The position numbers and the translations under genes are program-made. This document shows positions 4,014 to 45,834 of a stretch of DNA of 55,319 bases, piece after piece. Origin of the DNA: an uncultured virus (IMG/VR IMGVR_UViG_3300044956_000873) (taxonomy: Duplodnaviria > Heunggongvirae > Uroviricota > Caudoviricetes); the IMG/VR virus record IMGVR_UViG_3300044956_000873; one strand, given 5' to 3'. The notes beneath the pieces are model-generated. The model worked only from the letters and a program-made list of their open reading frames with translations, did no database searches and was not told where the DNA came from. How positions within the stretch are numbered: position 1 is the first letter of the stretch; each line of letters begins with the position of its first letter.

Positions 4014-4025
4014 TAAAAATATCAA

Positions 4026-4062
4026 GAATCATTTTTTATTCAAAATAATTGTTTTAAATTTG
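4026..4062 (+). promoter_or_regulatory. early promoter of tRNA operon 2
   Basis: GAATCATTTTTT at 4026, TAAATTTG at 4055; followed by TGAAACAA as in operon 1. Confidence 0.7.
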
Positions 4063-4097
4063 TGAAACAATATCAGAATAAAGATATTTAAGAAAGA

Positions 4098-4205
4098 ATG
4101 AAAAACTGTAGTAAACATAACATCACCCGCATGAAAAGTCAGATTAATGGCTGTTATCAAACGGTGGCGTTTTGGGCTAAGGGGAAAAAACCCGATCGAA
4201 GCTAG
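4098..4205 (+). CDS. putative attenuator leader peptide 2 (MKNCSKHNITRMKSQINGCYQTVAFWAKGKKPDRS)
   Basis: ATG-started 35-aa ORF between promoter and terminator; last codons form the antiterminator arm. Confidence 0.65.
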   Translation: MKNCSKHNITRMKSQINGCYQTVAFWAKGKKPDRS

Positions 4206-4234
4206 ATACAGGAGATCATAAATAGATATTTTGG

Positions 4235-4265
4235 AAAAGGCTTCGATTATTTTGAAGCCTTTTTT
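4235..4265 (+). terminator. intrinsic terminator (attenuator) upstream of tRNA cluster 2
   Basis: AAAAGGCTTCG/TGAAGCCTTTT hairpin plus T tract. Confidence 0.85.
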
Positions 4266-4268
4266 ATT

Positions 4269-4280
4269 TGTTCTTTAACA
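4269..4280 (+). promoter_or_regulatory. boxA-like antitermination element
   Basis: TGTTCTTTAACA, one mismatch to E. coli rrn boxA TGCTCTTTAACA. Confidence 0.6.
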
Positions 4281-4288
4281 TACTTGAC

Positions 4289-4425
4289 AAAGGTTGATTG
4301 GGGAAGGATGATTCCAATAGCACGAGAGTGTATATCGGCTGGAATCATCGGAGTTGGAAGATATACACCTAAGTAAAGCCAATCGTAAAAGGGGATGTCC
4401 ACGCAACCATGTTCCTCTTTCCTTT
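4289..4425 (+). ncRNA. unidentified structured RNA with pseudoknot
   Basis: Five helices, including interleaved perfect 10-bp and 9-bp stems; first element after boxA, immediately before tRNA-Trp. Confidence 0.65.
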
Positions 4426-4429
4426 ACAC

Positions 4430-4503
4430 ACATCGGTAGCTTAATTGAATAGAGCACTGGTCTCCAAAACCAGGGGTTGTGGGTTCTAGTCCCACCCTTT
4501 GTG
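4430..4503 (+). tRNA. tRNA-Trp(CCA), degenerate
   Basis: CTGGT-CTCCAAA-ACCAG anticodon arm, GTGGG/CCCAC T stem; two acceptor mismatches, D-loop GG lost. Confidence 0.7.
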
Positions 4504-4508
4504 CAGCT

Positions 4509-4581
4509 GGCCCTGTAGTTCAATGGATTAGAATTGGTGACTACGGATCATCAGATACTCGTTCAAATCGAGTCGCGGCTT
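4509..4581 (+). tRNA. tRNA-Arg(ACG)
   Basis: CT-ACG-GA loop, ACTCG-TTCAAAT-CGAGT T arm; one acceptor mismatch. Confidence 0.75.
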
Positions 4582-4590
4582 CTAAAATAA

Positions 4591-4661
4591 GGTCGCGTGG
4601 CCGAGTGGTTAGGCGGCGGTCTGCAAAACCGATTACACTGGTTCGAATTTAGTCGTGACCC
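4591..4661 (+). tRNA. tRNA-Cys(GCA)
   Basis: GGTCGCG/CGTGACC acceptor, CT-GCA-AA loop, TTCGAAT T-loop. Confidence 0.85.
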
Positions 4662-4807
4662 CAAAAAATTAAAAAATAAAGCCCATTGATAAAAGAGTAA
4701 TAGTAAAAGGAACTTTAGCATCAAGTAAAGAAAATTTTAGAAGAGAGGGGTATAGTTTTACAATTAGTAAAGCAATATTTAAAAAAATTAAAAAAATACT
4801 CAAAAAA

Positions 4808-4893
4808 GGAAAGTAACCCCAGACGGTGACGGGGCTCGCCTGCTAAGCGAATCGTACCTTAATTGGTATCTGGTTCGATCCCAGTTCTTTCCG
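4808..4893 (+). tRNA. tRNA-Ser(GCU)
   Basis: GGAAAG/CTTTCC acceptor, CT-GCT-AA loop, long variable arm, CTGG-TTCGATC-CCAG. Confidence 0.75.
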
Positions 4894-4943
4894 CAACATT
4901 GACATATAGATAAGCATTGATTCGATACGTCGAAGGCTCATAT

Positions 4944-5015
4944 TTTCCACTCATCTAATTGGCAGGACATGTGGTTTTGGTCCACAGAATCGAGGTTCGA
5001 ATCTTTGGGGAAAAA
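4944..5015 (+). tRNA. tRNA-Gln(UUG), degenerate
   Basis: TGTGG-TTTTGGT-CCACA anticodon arm, TTCGAAT T-loop; acceptor mismatches. Confidence 0.7.
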
Positions 5016-5054
5016 CAAAGATAAATAAGAAGACCAGTATGTAAAAATGTAGTT

Positions 5055-41993: not shown

Positions 41994-42586
41994 TCCAACC
42001 TTTTAGACAAAAATTTAATGATTATAAACTTTCAGTGTCGGGATTATCTTCCCTTCCCGAAGAATCTTTTATGCACTGGGTAAAAAATTATATCAATAAG
42101 GATTCCCAGTTTAATCCTTTAAATTTTTTGCAAGGGAAAGTTTACTCCTTTGCTTATAACGATAAGCTAGAACCTGGTAAAAAATTCATAAATAAAAGAC
42201 CAGTGATATTTTTTACTGGATATGATAACTACGAAAAGAAAAATCTATTTAACGGATTAGATCTAGTTTTAATATCTCCTATTTTTAGATTAGCATTTTT
42301 CGAAAGAGTACAAAGTGTATTCCAGGATCAGATAGAAAGAAACTTAAAAAAAGAAGAAACGGGAGAGGATAGAGATCAAGCTCCCCTTAGAACTGAATAT
42401 CAAATAATGGAAACAATTCTTAAAGGAATCCCCTATAAACATGCGTATAGATCATGGGATTTGAAAAAAGTTAAGGATGTTATGGAAATTCCTTTTGAAG
42501 ATTGGGCTAGAATAGTATATCTGGATACTCGATCAATTGAAGGGACCCAGTTAAATGAAATATATAATAAAAATTCACAAGTCTAA
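41990..42586 (+). CDS. DNA end protector (gp2-like)
   Basis: GKVYSFAY, RPVIF, GLDL, EIPFEDW; adjacent to gp4. Confidence 0.55.
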   Translation: MIQPFRQKFNDYKLSVSGLSSLPEESFMHWVKNYINKDSQFNPLNFLQGKVYSFAYNDKLEPGKKFINKRPVIFFTGYDNYEKKNLFNGLDLVLISPIFRLAFFERVQSVFQDQIERNLKKEETGEDRDQAPLRTEYQIMETILKGIPYKHAYRSWDLKKVKDVMEIPFEDWARIVYLDTRSIEGTQLNEIYNKNSQV

Positions 42587-44196
42587 TGGCTGGATTTACC
42601 GACGATAAAAAATCATTCTTTAGCTCTATTATAGATAGTATAAAGAAAGTAGGTAGTTTTGGAATGGCCTATGAAGATCTTGTTGTAAAGAATTCACAAG
42701 CAGTAGGTATAACTGAAGCTCAGTTTCTACAAAAGGGGGGAATTAAAGATGAATCATTCCTATTTGGTTTAAGAAGAGCAGATACTACAACTAAGCAGTA
42801 CATAGCTTATTTTGATAAGGACTATAAAAATAAAAGACACTATCTACAGGGATTTGCTCAGAATCCAGAAATTGAATTTATATTAGATACAATATGTGAC
42901 GAGTCCATAGTTTATGATGAGAAAAACTTTTGGGCTTACTTCACATTTATGCAACATGATGACGTTGATGAGGAAACATACGACAAAGTTCAAAAAAGAT
43001 ACAAAGAGATTTATAACCTATTTGGATTCAATCAGGATATTTCCGCATGGCATTTATTTAGAAAATTTTTAGTAGATGGTATAATAGCATTCGAAATAGT
43101 TTTTGATAAGAAGGGAAAAAATATAGTTGGGTTTAAAGAATTAGATCCCTGGTCTTTAATACCAACAGTAGAAGCACAGCCAGATGGTTCTTTTATCGAT
43201 ATATGGATACAGTATCCTGACAATCCATCACTGACAAGAAAACTTTATGATTCTCAGATAATTTATATAAGTTACGCTAAAGGTGGAGGGACATCCTCTA
43301 GGGTTAGTTACTGTGAAAGAATGATACGCTCTTTTAATCTTCTAAGAATAATGGAGCACACAAGAATTATTTGGAACGTGATGAACTCGTCATACAGAAT
43401 GGCGATGACAGTTCCCATTGGTACTAGATCTCCACAAAAAGCAAAGCAAACGCTAGGAGAGTTAATGTCTATATACAAAGAAGATATAAGACTTAACACC
43501 GACAGTGGAGAATTAAGCATAGATGGTAGACCAAAGATTCAATTCTTTAAGAATTATTTAATGCCTTCCTCCCCTAACGGTACTTCTGATATACAGCCAC
43601 TTCCCGGCGGGGGTGATACCACAGCATTCTCTGACACTACGGTTCTTAAATACTTTGCTAATAAATTAAGGATGGATTCTAAAATTCCAGCTACTAGATT
43701 CGGTAGGGAAGAATCAGGATCAGAAGGAACTATAACTTTTACTGCAGAGGGACTAGATCAAGAAGAAGTAAGATTTGGTAAATTTATAAACAGGTTAAGA
43801 TCGATCTACCAGGAGATATTAATGAAGCCACTTTGGGTTCAATTCTGTTTAGATTTTCCGCACCTGAAAAAAGACTATATAATAAAATCCGAATTCGGTC
43901 TAGACTATGTAAAGGAAAACATGTTTAGAGAAGCCAAAGAAATGGAGGTTTTAACAGCAAGAAAAGACCAGGTGATTAAAATATCTGCTCTTATGAATTC
44001 TGCGGGGAAAAAATACTTCAGCATGGATTTCTTAGTCGATCGATGGCTAGGGGTAAGAGGACAAGATTTAATTGGTAATAAAAAAGCTAAAGAGAAAGCT
44101 GCAGAAGCTAAAAAGAAAGCTGCAGAAGCTGAAGGAGGTGCTACTGGAGCAGAGGGTGCTACTGGAGAAGAAGGCGGAGGCGAATTTACACTATAA
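42586..44196 (+). CDS. portal protein 1 (gp20-like)
   Basis: PEIEFILDTICDE, FRKFLVDG, RSFNLLRIMEHTRIIW, EEVRFGKFINRLR. Confidence 0.9.
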   Translation: MAGFTDDKKSFFSSIIDSIKKVGSFGMAYEDLVVKNSQAVGITEAQFLQKGGIKDESFLFGLRRADTTTKQYIAYFDKDYKNKRHYLQGFAQNPEIEFILDTICDESIVYDEKNFWAYFTFMQHDDVDEETYDKVQKRYKEIYNLFGFNQDISAWHLFRKFLVDGIIAFEIVFDKKGKNIVGFKELDPWSLIPTVEAQPDGSFIDIWIQYPDNPSLTRKLYDSQIIYISYAKGGGTSSRVSYCERMIRSFNLLRIMEHTRIIWNVMNSSYRMAMTVPIGTRSPQKAKQTLGELMSIYKEDIRLNTDSGELSIDGRPKIQFFKNYLMPSSPNGTSDIQPLPGGGDTTAFSDTTVLKYFANKLRMDSKIPATRFGREESGSEGTITFTAEGLDQEEVRFGKFINRLRSIYQEILMKPLWVQFCLDFPHLKKDYIIKSEFGLDYVKENMFREAKEMEVLTARKDQVIKISALMNSAGKKYFSMDFLVDRWLGVRGQDLIGNKKAKEKAAEAKKKAAEAEGGATGAEGATGEEGGGEFTL

Positions 44197-44202
44197 AATA
44201 AT

Positions 44203-45834
44203 ATGGCTGGATTTTTAGATAATTTAGGAAAAATAAACCCCAATATCTCTAGGATATTAAAAACTATTAGTGGACTAGGGTCTTTTGGAATGGAATATAA
44301 AGACATGGTTATCCAAGACTCTATAGCAATCGGTGTATCCGAAGCCAATATGAGGGAAAGATTTGGATTTACTGATTCCGACGAAGATTTTATCTATAGC
44401 ATAGCAGCTCAGGACACATCGAATAGAAAATACATAGCATACTTTGACAAAGATTATCCATTCAAAAGAGATTTTCTTAGAACATTCGCTCTAAATGCAG
44501 AAATAGAATATATCTTAGACACTATCTGTGACGAAGCAATAGTCTATGACGAAAAGAACTTTTTCTGCCATCCAGCTTTAATGAATATGGATCTTAAGGA
44601 GAATGTAATAAAATCTTTAAGAAATAATTTTAGAAAACTGTATGTATTGCACAATTTTGTAAATGGACTTACAGGATGGCAATATTTTAGACAATTAATA
44701 GTGGAAGGATTTCTTGCATTTGAAATTATATACTCCAATGATGGTAAAGAAATAGTAGGATTTAAAGAATTAGACGCAGCAAGTTTAACTCCTGCAGTCG
44801 AAAAAAAACCCGACGGTACTAGAGAAACTATATGGTGGCAATATTACGGTGAAACTGTAAGACAAAGAAAACTTCTTGATGCACAGGTCATTTATATATC
44901 TTATGCTAAAGCAAATGTAGTTTCTAGAGTTTCTTATACTGAAAGACTTATAAGGTCTTACAACTTGCTAAAAATCATGGAGCACTCCAGAATAATATGG
45001 AATGTGATGAATGCCCAGTATAGAATTAAGATGACAGTTCCTATTGGTAGCAAAGCTCCTCAAAAAGCTAAAGAAACATTAGGTGAGCTTATGTCCGTCT
45101 ATAAAGAAGATATTAAGCTTGATACAACATCAGGTGAACTCTCAATAAATGGTAGGCCGGATATACAGTTTTATAAAAACTATCTATTTCCACAACAAGG
45201 AGGCGAATCTGTTAGAATAGAGACACTAAATGCACAGGGACCAAACTTAAATATTATGGACTCGGTGGTTTATTTCTATAATAAATTAAGACAGGACTCT
45301 AAGATTCCTTACAACAGATTCTCTTCCCGATTTGGAGTTGGGTCTAATAATGTATTTAAAACTGCTGCAGATGGAGCGGAAAGGGATGAAGTTAGATTTG
45401 CTAAATTTATAACACGTCTTAGATCTATATTTCAGGAGATCATTGTTAAGCCCTTATGGATCCAAATGTGTTTAGATTTCCCAGATCTTAAGAATGATTC
45501 CGAATTTAGAAGTCAGATAGGAGTTAAGTTTGAAAGTGATAATGTATTTGGAGAATCTAGAGAGATAGAACAGCTAATAAAGAAAATAGATTTTATAACA
45601 TCTATGGGAGAAATTAAGGAAACTGTAAACGAAGAAGAGGTACAGTTTTTTGATCAGGATTTTATGATAGAAAGATGGTTAGACCTCTCTTATGATGATA
45701 TACAGTTAAATAAATCCTATGTAAAAAAATCCGAGGAAGCTGGAAAATCTGCGGCAACTGGAGCAACAGGAGGGGCAGAAGCAGGGGGAGCAGAAGCTGC
45801 AACAGGAGGAGCAGAAGCTGCAACAGGAGCTTAA
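44203..45834 (+). CDS. portal protein 2 (gp20-like paralog)
   Basis: Same motifs: EIEYILDTICDE, RSYNLLKIMEHSRIIW, RDEVRFAKFITRLR. Confidence 0.9.
   Translation: MAGFLDNLGKINPNISRILKTISGLGSFGMEYKDMVIQDSIAIGVSEANMRERFGFTDSDEDFIYSIAAQDTSNRKYIAYFDKDYPFKRDFLRTFALNAEIEYILDTICDEAIVYDEKNFFCHPALMNMDLKENVIKSLRNNFRKLYVLHNFVNGLTGWQYFRQLIVEGFLAFEIIYSNDGKEIVGFKELDAASLTPAVEKKPDGTRETIWWQYYGETVRQRKLLDAQVIYISYAKANVVSRVSYTERLIRSYNLLKIMEHSRIIWNVMNAQYRIKMTVPIGSKAPQKAKETLGELMSVYKEDIKLDTTSGELSINGRPDIQFYKNYLFPQQGGESVRIETLNAQGPNLNIMDSVVYFYNKLRQDSKIPYNRFSSRFGVGSNNVFKTAADGAERDEVRFAKFITRLRSIFQEIIVKPLWIQMCLDFPDLKNDSEFRSQIGVKFESDNVFGESREIEQLIKKIDFITSMGEIKETVNEEEVQFFDQDFMIERWLDLSYDDIQLNKSYVKKSEEAGKSAATGATGGAEAGGAEAATGGAEAATGA

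What the first reader, a model, noticed from the sequence alone, without database searches (positions are those of the whole stretch)
4289..4425. Unannotated ~137-nt pseudoknotted ncRNA heading tRNA cluster 2
Seen: closing stem AAAGG(4289-93)/CCTTT(4421-25); GATTGG(4296-4301)/CCAATC(4379-84); interleaved perfect helices GATGATTCCA(4307-16)/TGGAATCATC(4340-49) and GTGTATATC(4328-36)/GATATACAC(4360-68), forming an H-type pseudoknot; 3' hairpin AAAGGGGA(4388-95)/TCCTCTTT(4413-20). It is better preserved than the neighbouring tRNAs and would be released by tRNA processing. It does not match tRNA, tmRNA, SRP, 6S or the small ribozymes I can recognise. Inference: a stable RNA co-induced with the tRNAs, perhaps a decoy or translation effector.
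Basis: partly seen in the sequence, partly recalled or inferred. Interest (0 to 1): 0.78.

Follow-up and report, generated by a model that had tools for sequence, protein, structure and literature searches.

The report
New knotted RNA in phage tRNA arrays
The flagged stretch is a real gene for a small, tightly knotted RNA of a family not found in the RNA catalogue searched; more than a hundred uncultured lake-water phages carry it among their tRNA genes, and its job is unknown.

Summary
In this one sequence they are weak evidence: the nested fold scores z = -0.66, and 15 of 100 window shuffles hold an interleaved stem pair.

Relatives settle it. Pattern scans found the element in over 200 viral and metagenome loci. 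Three alignments keep 93-99% of cells paired, against 36-54% for slid controls. Compensatory changes occur in both pseudoknot helices, P2 and the 3' hairpin.

I also found a second pseudoknot. GUUN in the pseudoknot's third loop pairs with NRAC in the 3' hairpin loop (G-C 73, U-G 58, other 6 of 137).

G-U outnumbers A-C 56 to 10, so the + strand is the RNA. No Rfam 15 family matches, nor do the phage T4 small RNAs.

The element lies flush inside same-strand tRNA arrays, most often before tRNA-Tyr. It occurs once per genome and is optional between close relatives.

Expression and function were not tested. This scan has noted other orphan RNAs in phage tRNA arrays, but not this family.

The parts
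4289..4425 (+). The whole RNA as flagged. The conserved core runs 4291-4423. It belongs to a family with at least 137 distinct sequences.
4291..4293 (+). P1 5' arm (AGG), pairing with 4421-4423. It is invariant, so no covariation is available.
4296..4301 (+). P2 5' arm (GATTGG), pairing with 4379-4384. Four of 6 pairs covary.
4307..4315 (+). Pseudoknot helix A 5' arm, pairing with 4341-4349. All pairs covary. The tenth pair, 4316-4340, is not conserved.
4328..4336 (+). Pseudoknot helix B 5' arm, pairing with 4360-4368. It lies inside the loop of helix A. Six of the 8 pairs counted covary.
4341..4349 (+). Helix A 3' arm.
4350..4356 (+). GGAGUU, invariant, in the third loop of the pseudoknot. 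GUUG 4353-4356 forms tertiary helix T1 with CAAC 4404-4407.
4360..4368 (+). Helix B 3' arm.
4379..4384 (+). P2 3' arm (CCAATC).
4388..4395 (+). P3 5' arm, pairing with 4413-4420. Five of 8 pairs covary.
4396..4412 (+). P3 loop of 17 nt, nearly invariant: (A/U)(U/C)GUCCAC-N1N2N3-ACCAUCU. N2N3AC (4404-4407) is the 3' arm of T1. The G at 4411 is C in 136 of the 137 family sequences.
4413..4420 (+). P3 3' arm.
4421..4423 (+). P1 3' arm (CCU).
4430..4504 (+). tRNA-Trp(CCA), starting 4 nt after the flagged stretch. It is the first of the array Trp-Arg-Cys-(Ser)-Gln.
4232..4266 (+). Terminator-like hairpin ending the conserved 275-nt non-coding stretch upstream. It is context only, not part of the RNA.

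Best explanation
Window 4289-4425 (+) is an accessory phage gene for a small non-coding RNA of about 135 nt. It belongs to a family not found in Rfam 15 or in the papers I could search.

The fold is compact, with two pseudoknots. A short closing stem (P1) stacks on a 3' hairpin (P3). A side branch (P2) carries an H-type pseudoknot (helices A and B). The third loop of that pseudoknot reaches over and pairs with the P3 loop (helix T1).

The RNA is made as part of the polycistronic tRNA precursor. The host's tRNA-processing enzymes most likely cut it out: RNase P at the 5' end of the next tRNA, and the 3'-end maturation of the preceding tRNA where there is one. It would then act in trans as a free, stable RNA. 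The likely working surface is the block of invariant unpaired nucleotides around the P1-P2-P3 junction and the P3 loop, which would bind a protein, an RNA or a small molecule.

Shown here: the RNA structure, the coding strand, the family, and the array context.
Inferred: co-transcription, excision, stability and action in trans.
Unknown: the partner and the benefit to the phage.
For: Structure:
- Three alignments keep 92.8-98.8% of cells paired, against 36-54% for slid controls. Changes on both sides occur in 27 of 37, 17 of 34 and 16 of 39 pairs.
- T1 pair: G-C 73, U-G 58, other 6 of 137. Both states occur in 7 of 9 insert-length classes.

Strand: G-U/U-G 56 against A-C/C-A 10.

Not coding and not a tRNA:
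- The loop is invariant at every position, including those that would be third codon positions, while the stems covary.
- ARAGORN and the Rfam tRNA model give no call here.

Context:
- Of 148 non-redundant contexts, 115 of 146 have a same-strand tRNA starting within 10 nt downstream (tRNA-Tyr in 74).
- 84 of 145 have one ending within 10 nt upstream.
- All 663 tRNAs in these loci lie on the element's strand.

Selection:
- The element is 83.9% identical between the window and the copy shared by G005 and G006. Their portal proteins match the window's at only 22% identity over 171 residues.
- It is more conserved than the flanking tRNAs.

Accessory and single-copy:
- It is absent from G003 and G004 (portal 89-97% identical), where tRNA-Lys and tRNA-Trp abut in L008 (G003) and the slot is likewise empty in L005 (G004).
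- There is one copy in a 317-kb record rated 100% complete.

Core: natural variants of 98 nt and 65 nt lack the A/B pseudoknot but keep P1, P2, P3 and the loop.
Against: - There is no expression evidence of any kind. No promoter was identified. The only sigma-70-like match would start transcription inside the element.
- In 61 of 145 contexts, including this window, ARAGORN called no tRNA within 10 nt upstream. The 5' end there cannot come from tRNA 3' maturation. Some of these cases are tRNAs that ARAGORN missed or other RNA modules.
- P1 is only 3 invariant base pairs, so the ends of the mature RNA are not defined.
- The window's own copy has a unique C-to-G change at an otherwise invariant loop position (4411). 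It also sits in a shrunken, diverged tRNA array, so this particular copy could be decaying.
- A dense set of invariant unpaired nucleotides in a double pseudoknot is as typical of ribozymes and ligand-binding RNAs as of protein-binding RNAs.
Confidence: 0.6

Rival explanations
1. It is a self-cleaving ribozyme of a new class, or another catalytic RNA. It would cut itself at one of its edges and so help to separate the tRNA precursor or make its own ends.
For: - The fold is a compact double pseudoknot with many invariant unpaired nucleotides: GGUUGA, GGGGAA, GGAGUU, AGUAA, GUAAAA, GUCCAC, ACCAUCUU.
- It sits flush against tRNAs, with gaps of 2-3 nt upstream and 4-7 nt downstream of the core.
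- From my own knowledge, not from a call here: the size range fits small ribozymes, and small self-cleaving ribozymes are common in phage-like metagenomic DNA.
Against: - No match to any ribozyme model of Rfam 15, even at E up to 10.
- Only one junction of an array of up to 16 tRNAs carries it, and close relatives do without it. It is therefore not needed for array processing.
- The 65-nt and 98-nt variants drop the A/B pseudoknot entirely.
Confidence: 0.12
2. It is an anti-defence decoy or sponge. Produced in bulk with the tRNAs, it would trap a host immune protein that targets tRNAs, or soak up an immune signalling molecule.
For: - It travels with phage tRNAs, most often directly before tRNA-Tyr (74 of 146 contexts).
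- A host retron system is reported to degrade tRNA-Tyr on infection (PMC12673091, abstract as shown in the listing).
- A phage tRNA is reported to neutralise the PARIS defence system (PMC11464382, title as shown in the same listing).
- It is an accessory gene, gained and lost between close relatives and shared by unrelated phages. From my own knowledge, counter-defence genes often behave this way.
Against: - It shows no resemblance to a tRNA or an anticodon arm.
- No defence or counter-defence gene was linked to it here.
- The link to tRNA-Tyr may simply be inherited linkage. In this window the neighbour is tRNA-Trp.
Confidence: 0.15
3. It is a cis-acting element of the tRNA transcript. It could be a roadblock against exonucleases, a folding insulator between tRNAs, or a signal that modifies the transcribing polymerase. 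It would have no function as a free RNA.
For: - It is always on the tRNA strand and inside or at the head of arrays.
- It heads a sub-cluster, after an ORF or a non-coding stretch, in a substantial minority of contexts, including this window.
Against: - The sequence is conserved far beyond what a roadblock needs. Twelve of the 17 loop positions never vary and two more vary once among 137 distinct sequences.
- Its position within arrays varies: Lys|Trp, Val|Tyr, Asn|Tyr, Trp|Tyr, Trp|Met, Gln|Arg.
- Close relatives with the same tRNAs lack it.
Confidence: 0.08
4. It is not a functional RNA. It would be chance inverted repeats, a decayed pair of tRNA genes, or a DNA-level site such as a recombination or protein-binding site.
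For: - The single-sequence statistics are weak.
- 137 nt is about two tRNA lengths.
Against: - There are compensatory changes in six helices.
- G-U is tolerated and A-C is not (56 against 10). A DNA site or a - strand RNA would not show this.
- There is no tRNA-like score.
Confidence: 0.02

Closest known systems
Phage T4 small stable RNAs: species 1 (rnaC, 139 nt) and species 2 (rnaD, 119 nt)
   Same: - Both are non-tRNA RNAs of about the same size, encoded on the tRNA strand, flush inside a phage tRNA cluster (annotation).
- Their biological roles are still unknown (PMC3014915, passage; PMC9697503, passages, which also report a northern blot assay validating their late expression).
   Different: - There is no sequence or structure homology. 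The covariance model of this family finds nothing in the T4 tRNA region at E up to 1.
- T4 rnaC ends in a tRNA-like T arm and rnaD ends in CCA (read). This family has neither.
- No pseudoknot was established here for the T4 RNAs.
GOLLD and ROOL large ornate RNAs (Rfam)
   Same: - Both are orphan, pseudoknot-rich RNAs of phages and prophages, 'often near tRNA islands', with no known function (PMC12286853, passages).
- GOLLD is lake-derived by name, and this family was found in lake-water data.
   Different: - They are 580-800 nt or more and assemble into multimeric cages (PMC12286853). This RNA is 65-140 nt.
- No Rfam match.
- Multimerisation was not tested.
Compact pseudoknotted catalytic or ligand-binding RNAs (small self-cleaving ribozymes, riboswitch aptamers)
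   Same: By general analogy from my own knowledge, not a membership claim: a small size, nested and crossing helices, and many invariant unpaired nucleotides clustered at junctions.
   Different: - No model of any such family matches.
- No downstream ORF or expression platform is present.
- No activity or ligand was tested.
Y RNAs with the Ro60 (TROVE) protein
   Same: - From my own knowledge: bacterial and phage Y RNAs are small structured RNAs, sometimes found near tRNAs.
- The window's phage lineage encodes a protein with a TROVE-domain match (G002, G003, G004).
   Different: - The TROVE gene and the element do not go together. G003 and G004 have TROVE but not the element. G005 and G006 have the element but no TROVE match.
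- The only weak YrlA match lies on the tRNAs, not on the element.

Membership tests
Any Rfam 15 family (4227 models) | Covariance-model score at or near the family's gathering threshold | tested here: not met
   No match overlaps 4289-4425 at gathering thresholds or at E up to 10. None overlaps the element in six members of other subtypes at E up to 0.5.
tRNA / tmRNA | Cloverleaf or tRNA-like domain recognised by ARAGORN or Rfam RF00005 | tested here: not met
   ARAGORN tRNAs in the window and none at the element. The Rfam tRNA model gives no hit there.
H-type pseudoknot (structural class) | Two helices in which the 3' arm of the first lies between the arms of the second, both supported by covariation | tested here: met
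   Helix A: 10 of 10 pairs changed on both sides. Helix B: 6 of 8. The same topology holds with different sequences in other subtypes.
Phage T4 rnaC / rnaD | Homology in sequence or structure to the T4 RNAs | tested here: not met
   cmsearch with model R1 over the T4 tRNA region (L168) gave no match at E up to 1. blastn of the element against 50,697 phage records gave no match at E up to 1.
Phage T4 rnaC / rnaD | Encoded within a phage tRNA cluster on the tRNA strand, about 120-140 nt | tested here: met
Phage T4 rnaC / rnaD | Accumulates as a discrete stable RNA during infection | not testable with these tools
   No RNA run holds the stretch. The contigs laid cannot show RNA ends.
Known self-cleaving ribozyme classes in Rfam (hammerhead, twister, twister-sister, pistol, hatchet, HDV-like, hairpin, glmS) | Match to the class's covariance model | tested here: not met
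   No such family appears at the element at E up to 10 or E up to 0.5. The list of classes held by Rfam is from my own knowledge.
Known self-cleaving ribozyme classes in Rfam | Site-specific self-cleavage | not testable with these tools
   This needs an in vitro transcript.
GOLLD / ROOL | Match to the Rfam model; length over 500 nt | tested here: not met
   No Rfam match. The element is 137 nt.
Y RNA (Ro60 partner) | Co-occurrence with a TROVE-domain protein | tested here: not met
   Element and TROVE match per record: G002 yes/yes, G003 no/yes, G004 no/yes, G005 yes/no, G006 yes/no. All records except G005 are incomplete.

The most novel reading that the evidence does not exclude
The RNA is a new class of catalytic or ligand-binding RNA that phages make in bulk from their tRNA operons. 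It could be a self-cleaving or otherwise reactive ribozyme. It could also be an RNA 'sponge' that captures a host immune signal or a tRNA-directed defence protein. Its invariant junction and loop nucleotides would form the active or binding pocket.
Probability: 0.2. Interest if true: 0.9.

Novelty: new variant of a known kind. Interest (0 to 1): 0.66.

Why it matters
Phage tRNA clusters have been known for fifty years to hide non-tRNA RNAs whose purpose nobody has worked out (T4 species 1 and 2; later GOLLD and ROOL). This family offers several advantages for study:
- It is small, at 65-140 nt.
- It is very well defined, with six helices of which five are supported by covariation.
- It has natural deletion variants that mark out a minimal core.
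- It is abundant in freshwater phages.
- It is conserved far beyond the phages' own structural proteins, and it is gained and lost between close relatives. That pattern suggests a strongly selected accessory function.

Its size suits in vitro transcription, probing, crystallography or scaffolded cryo-EM, and ligand or protein pull-downs. It could therefore make the old question 'what are the extra RNAs in phage tRNA operons for?' directly testable. It also adds a family that annotation pipelines currently leave blank.

Tried and rejected
**Expression.** No RNA holder was listed for the stretch. Two runs labelled RNA-Seq, marked 'probably DNA', and two DNA runs were laid as contigs. They gave only fragments of relatives and no information on ends.

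**Homologues in named phages.**
- blastn against 50,697 phage records found none.
- Model R1 found none in T4.
- It found none in LR756500, LR756504, LR756501, Lak-B5 or Cellulophaga phage phi17:2. That search had no positive control in the same call.

**Bacterial genomes.** The loop pattern hit 2 contigs of 32.2 million. Both are chance matches without the stems. By my own rough estimate, about 2 chance hits are expected.

**Antisense target.** No site complementary to the loop was found in the window at up to 3 mismatches, apart from the loop itself.

**Small ORF from the loop's AUG.** Rejected. The loop is invariant at every position and the flanking stems covary.

**GGUUG 4292-96 pairing with CAACC in the loop.** I considered this first and dropped it in favour of GUUN of the third pseudoknot loop, which covaries. 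The 65-nt variants lack that loop, so the 5' GGUUG may substitute there. This was not tested.

**Mimic of the sarcin-ricin loop.** Considered because of ACGAGAG and CGGAGU. Rejected because those letters are not kept in the other subtypes. The sarcin-ricin sequence itself was recalled from memory, not fetched.

**Likeness of the loop to a conserved 16S rRNA stretch.** Recalled from memory and not tested. A shared 7-mer is expected by chance.

**Ro60 / Y RNA link.** Rejected on co-occurrence. RtcB is absent from all five records.

**Prior description.**
- A catalogue of 10,006 viral candidate RNAs exists (PMC10690425; I read passages). Six of my contig names were not found in its readable tables. 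Its tRNA-Tyr-overlapping candidate DNAVirus_1423 is a 66-nt soil motif.
- The catalogue's model and alignment archives could not be read, so I cannot exclude that this family is among them.
- A full-text search for six 15-nt motifs of the family found no paper.
- Three keyword searches found no description.

**Promoter.** The only sigma-70-like site (TTGACA 4284-89, GATGAT 4307-12) would start inside the element. In L003 the stretch aligning to window 4270-4290, which includes this TTGACA (18 of 21 letters identical), ends 5 nt before tRNA-Phe. It is therefore unlikely to be the promoter.

**Other Rfam families in 20 related arrays.** 225 matches reached the gathering score. Only the best 150 were shown, and all of those were tRNA. 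The other 75 were not seen.

Full report
**The observation**

- AAAGG 4289-93 / CCTTT 4421-25
- GATTGG 4296-4301 / CCAATC 4379-84
- the perfect 10-bp helix 4307-16 / 4340-49
- the perfect 9-bp helix 4328-36 / 4360-68, whose 5' arm lies in the loop of the 10-bp helix (H-type topology)
- AAAGGGGA 4388-95 / TCCTCTTT 4413-20

On this one sequence the case is weak. A nested fold gives -33.5 kcal/mol with z = -0.66, and z = -1.34 for the reverse strand. This is the only place in the 55-kb window with two interleaved perfect stems of at least 9 bp. However, 15 of 100 dinucleotide-preserving shuffles of the window contain at least one such pair. ARAGORN finds seven tRNAs and nothing here. Rfam 15 gives only tRNAs at gathering scores, and nothing overlaps the element even at E up to 10.

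**The setting**

The window is part of a large tailed phage with about 33% G+C. It encodes a UvsX-like recombinase, a DnaB-like helicase, an SbcC-like nuclease subunit, a tail sheath, two portal-like ORFs and a DNA ligase. The nearest portal proteins among named records belong to huge uncultured phages and to Lak phages of Prevotella, at 33-43% identity. The DNA is held by lake-water metagenome runs.

The element lies 4 nt before tRNA-Trp, at the head of an array Trp-Arg-Cys-(Ser)-Gln. It follows a 275-nt conserved non-coding stretch that ends in a terminator-like hairpin.

**Relatives**

- A virus record, G001, is 100% identical over 951 bases, so it gives no comparative information.
- Twenty-four loci were found through the neighbouring HNH gene. 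Only L003 and L004 hold the element, at 94.9% and 90.0% identity, between tRNA-Lys and tRNA-Trp.
- In L008 and L009 the same two tRNAs abut with 5 nt between them.
- These three sequences alone already showed two compensatory changes in the 3' hairpin and G-U replacements in helix A.

Pattern scans then gave many more:
- 8 and 34 viral loci with two exact motifs
- 97 metagenome stretches with a degenerate pattern on the hairpin loop

nhmmer found 139 hits in the 167 loci then held. Sixty-nine distinct full-length sequences came from these. A regular expression anchored on the conserved blocks later collected 137 distinct sequences from all loci.

**Covariation**

Of the 69 sequences, 45 went into alignment A2. 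These were the subtype with the same insert length as the window, with the window standing in for its identical copy L001, giving 46 rows in all. Twenty-two went into A3 (the other subtypes). One was dropped because it holds an N.

| Alignment | Rows | Cells paired | Slid controls | Pairs changed on both sides |
|---|---|---|---|---|
| A3 (other subtypes) | 22 | 92.8% | 37-54% | 17 of 34 |
| A4 (refined model) | 33 | 98.8% | 36-53% | 16 of 39 |

- On A2, none of 500 shuffles reaches any of the five measures. By helix, pairs with a change on both sides number: P2 4 of 6, helix A 10 of 10, helix B 6 of 8 counted, P3 5 of 8.
- On A2, the two outer pairs of the closing stem are unpaired in 23 and 17 of 46 sequences. 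The last pair of helix A is unpaired in 29 of 46.
- On A3, the pseudoknot helices have different sequences but the same topology. On A3 and A4, 0 of 500 shuffles reach four of the five measures; the count of further pair types is reached by 175 and by 38 of 500.
- A4 holds 33 of the 77 distinct sequences from the loop-independent scan, namely those of the window's subtype.
- Over A2, G-U and U-G cells number 56 against 10 A-C and C-A. The RNA is therefore read from the + strand, the strand of the tRNAs.

**A second pseudoknot**

I ran a mutual-information scan over the 137 sequences. After two of the hairpin's own pairs, its strongest signal links two positions: the nucleotide that follows the invariant GGAGUU in the third loop of the pseudoknot, and the middle nucleotide of three variable positions in the hairpin loop.

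- The table for this pair is G-C 73, U-G 58, and six others (A-C 2, G-G 2, G-A 1, A-G 1). Both pairing states occur in 7 of 9 insert-length classes, so the switch has happened repeatedly.
- The neighbouring U faces A in 121 sequences and G in 16. The next two pairs, U-A and G-C, are invariant.
- This gives a 4-bp helix T1, GUUN with NRAC. In the window it is 4353-56 with 4404-07. It is 99.2% paired on A4.
- The hairpin loop reads (A/U)(U/C)GUCCAC-N1N2N3-ACCAUCU. N1 is free, N2 and N3 are in T1, and the rest is almost invariant.
- The window's G at 4411 is C in 136 of the 137 sequences.

**Variants**

- L150 carries a 98-nt form in which 17 nt replace the 62-nt pseudoknot domain.
- L038, L070, L104 and L107 carry a 65-nt form in which P2 is closed by a triloop.
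- All keep P1, P2, P3 and the loop.
- The A/B pseudoknot is therefore a dispensable elaboration. The junction with the hairpin loop is the conserved core.

**Context**

In 148 non-redundant contexts:
- A same-strand tRNA starts within 10 nt of the core's end in 115 of 146. It is tRNA-Tyr(GUA) in 74, and otherwise Trp, Thr, Val, Met, His and others.
- A same-strand tRNA ends within 10 nt upstream in 84 of 145.
- Both hold in 69 of 143.
- All 663 tRNAs called in these loci are on the element's strand.

ARAGORN misses some tRNAs. Several 'empty' upstream flanks show T-arm-like ends or other conserved modules, and L177 has two copies in tandem.

Model R1 finds one copy each in G002, G005 (317 kb, rated 100% complete) and G006, and none in G003 or G004. 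G003 and G004 have portals 89-97% identical to the window's. G005 and G006 match at only 22% identity over 171 residues, yet their copy of the RNA is 83.9% identical to the window's. The RNA is thus both optional among close relatives and shared by distant phages.

**What it is and how it probably works**

Settled here: it is a real gene for a structured non-coding RNA on the + strand, with a fold of six helices including two pseudoknots, and it belongs to a large family confined so far to uncultured viral and metagenome contigs.

Inferred from position: it is transcribed with the tRNAs and freed by their processing. RNase P at the next tRNA would define its 3' side. Where a tRNA precedes it, that tRNA's 3' maturation would define its 5' side.

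I cannot say what it does. The strong conservation of unpaired nucleotides at the junction and loop argues for a specific partner or chemistry. I give:
- 0.6 to a free, trans-acting stable RNA
- 0.15 to the narrower anti-defence decoy or sponge reading
- 0.12 to a new self-cleaving ribozyme
- 0.08 to a purely cis-acting element of the transcript
- 0.02 to no function

**Comparison with what is known**

The nearest analogues in niche are the T4 RNAs species 1 and 2. They are annotated flush in the T4 tRNA cluster, and their roles are still described as unknown (PMC3014915 and PMC9697503, passages). The model of this family does not match them, and they carry tRNA-like ends that this family lacks.

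GOLLD and ROOL share the phage tRNA-island niche and the lack of a known function (PMC12286853, passages), but they are several times larger and do not match.

A Y RNA role with a Ro60-like protein was tested by co-occurrence and not supported.

**Novelty**

Rfam 15 has no such family. No paper in the library holds its motifs, and three keyword searches found no description.

A catalogue of 10,006 viral candidate RNAs built from the same viral collection (PMC10690425) could include it. Its readable tables did not list six of my contigs, but its model archives could not be opened.

Earlier notes of this scan describe other orphan RNAs in phage tRNA arrays (e1-6036171, e1-5842264, e1-6428595). 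A look-up by sequence found none like this one.

I class it as a new variant of a known kind: a new fold in the known niche of orphan RNAs in phage tRNA clusters.

Noticed in passing
window 4808-4896 (+): This looks like a tRNA-Ser(GCU) with a long variable arm. ARAGORN and the Rfam tRNA model both miss it. It matches annotated tRNA-Ser genes of Acinetobacter phages at 74-76% and is 91-92% identical in L003 and L004.
   Followed up: partly
window 4014-4288 (+): A 275-nt non-coding stretch, 88.5% identical in L003, ends in a 15-pair terminator-like hairpin at 4232-4266. It could be a small RNA with its own terminator, or the leader of the tRNA array.
   Followed up: no
window 42586-44196 and 44203-45834 (+): Two adjacent ORFs both match the portal-protein family phrog_213. 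The same tandem pair, 49-51% identical to each other's counterpart, is kept in G002, G003 and G004.
   Followed up: partly
L108, L114, L196, L224, L232, L287 (about 90 nt upstream of the element); also L174/L204/L227 and L176/L186/L230/L283: At least three other conserved, apparently structured non-tRNA modules sit between a tRNA and this element in related arrays. These arrays hold several kinds of orphan RNA cassette.
   Followed up: no
L177, about 60 nt upstream of the element: The 3' half of a second, diverged copy of the element lies directly upstream, so this contig has two copies in tandem.
   Followed up: no
G002:C1:142842-143075, G003:C1:89232-89471, G004:C1:48493-48780 (outside the window): ORFs of 560-579 aa with a partial TROVE (Ro60-like) match above Pfam's cut-off occur in the window's phage lineage. 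In G002 the ORF lies about 11 kb from the element. A Y-RNA-like partner may exist elsewhere in these phages.
   Followed up: partly
window 4430-5016 compared with L003 1191-2959: The window's array is reduced. ARAGORN tRNAs here against 15 in L003. Its tRNA-Trp, Arg and Cys are only 78-84% identical to the relatives', and the Rfam alignments mark non-standard pairs, among them in the acceptor stems of tRNA-Trp and tRNA-Arg.
   Followed up: partly
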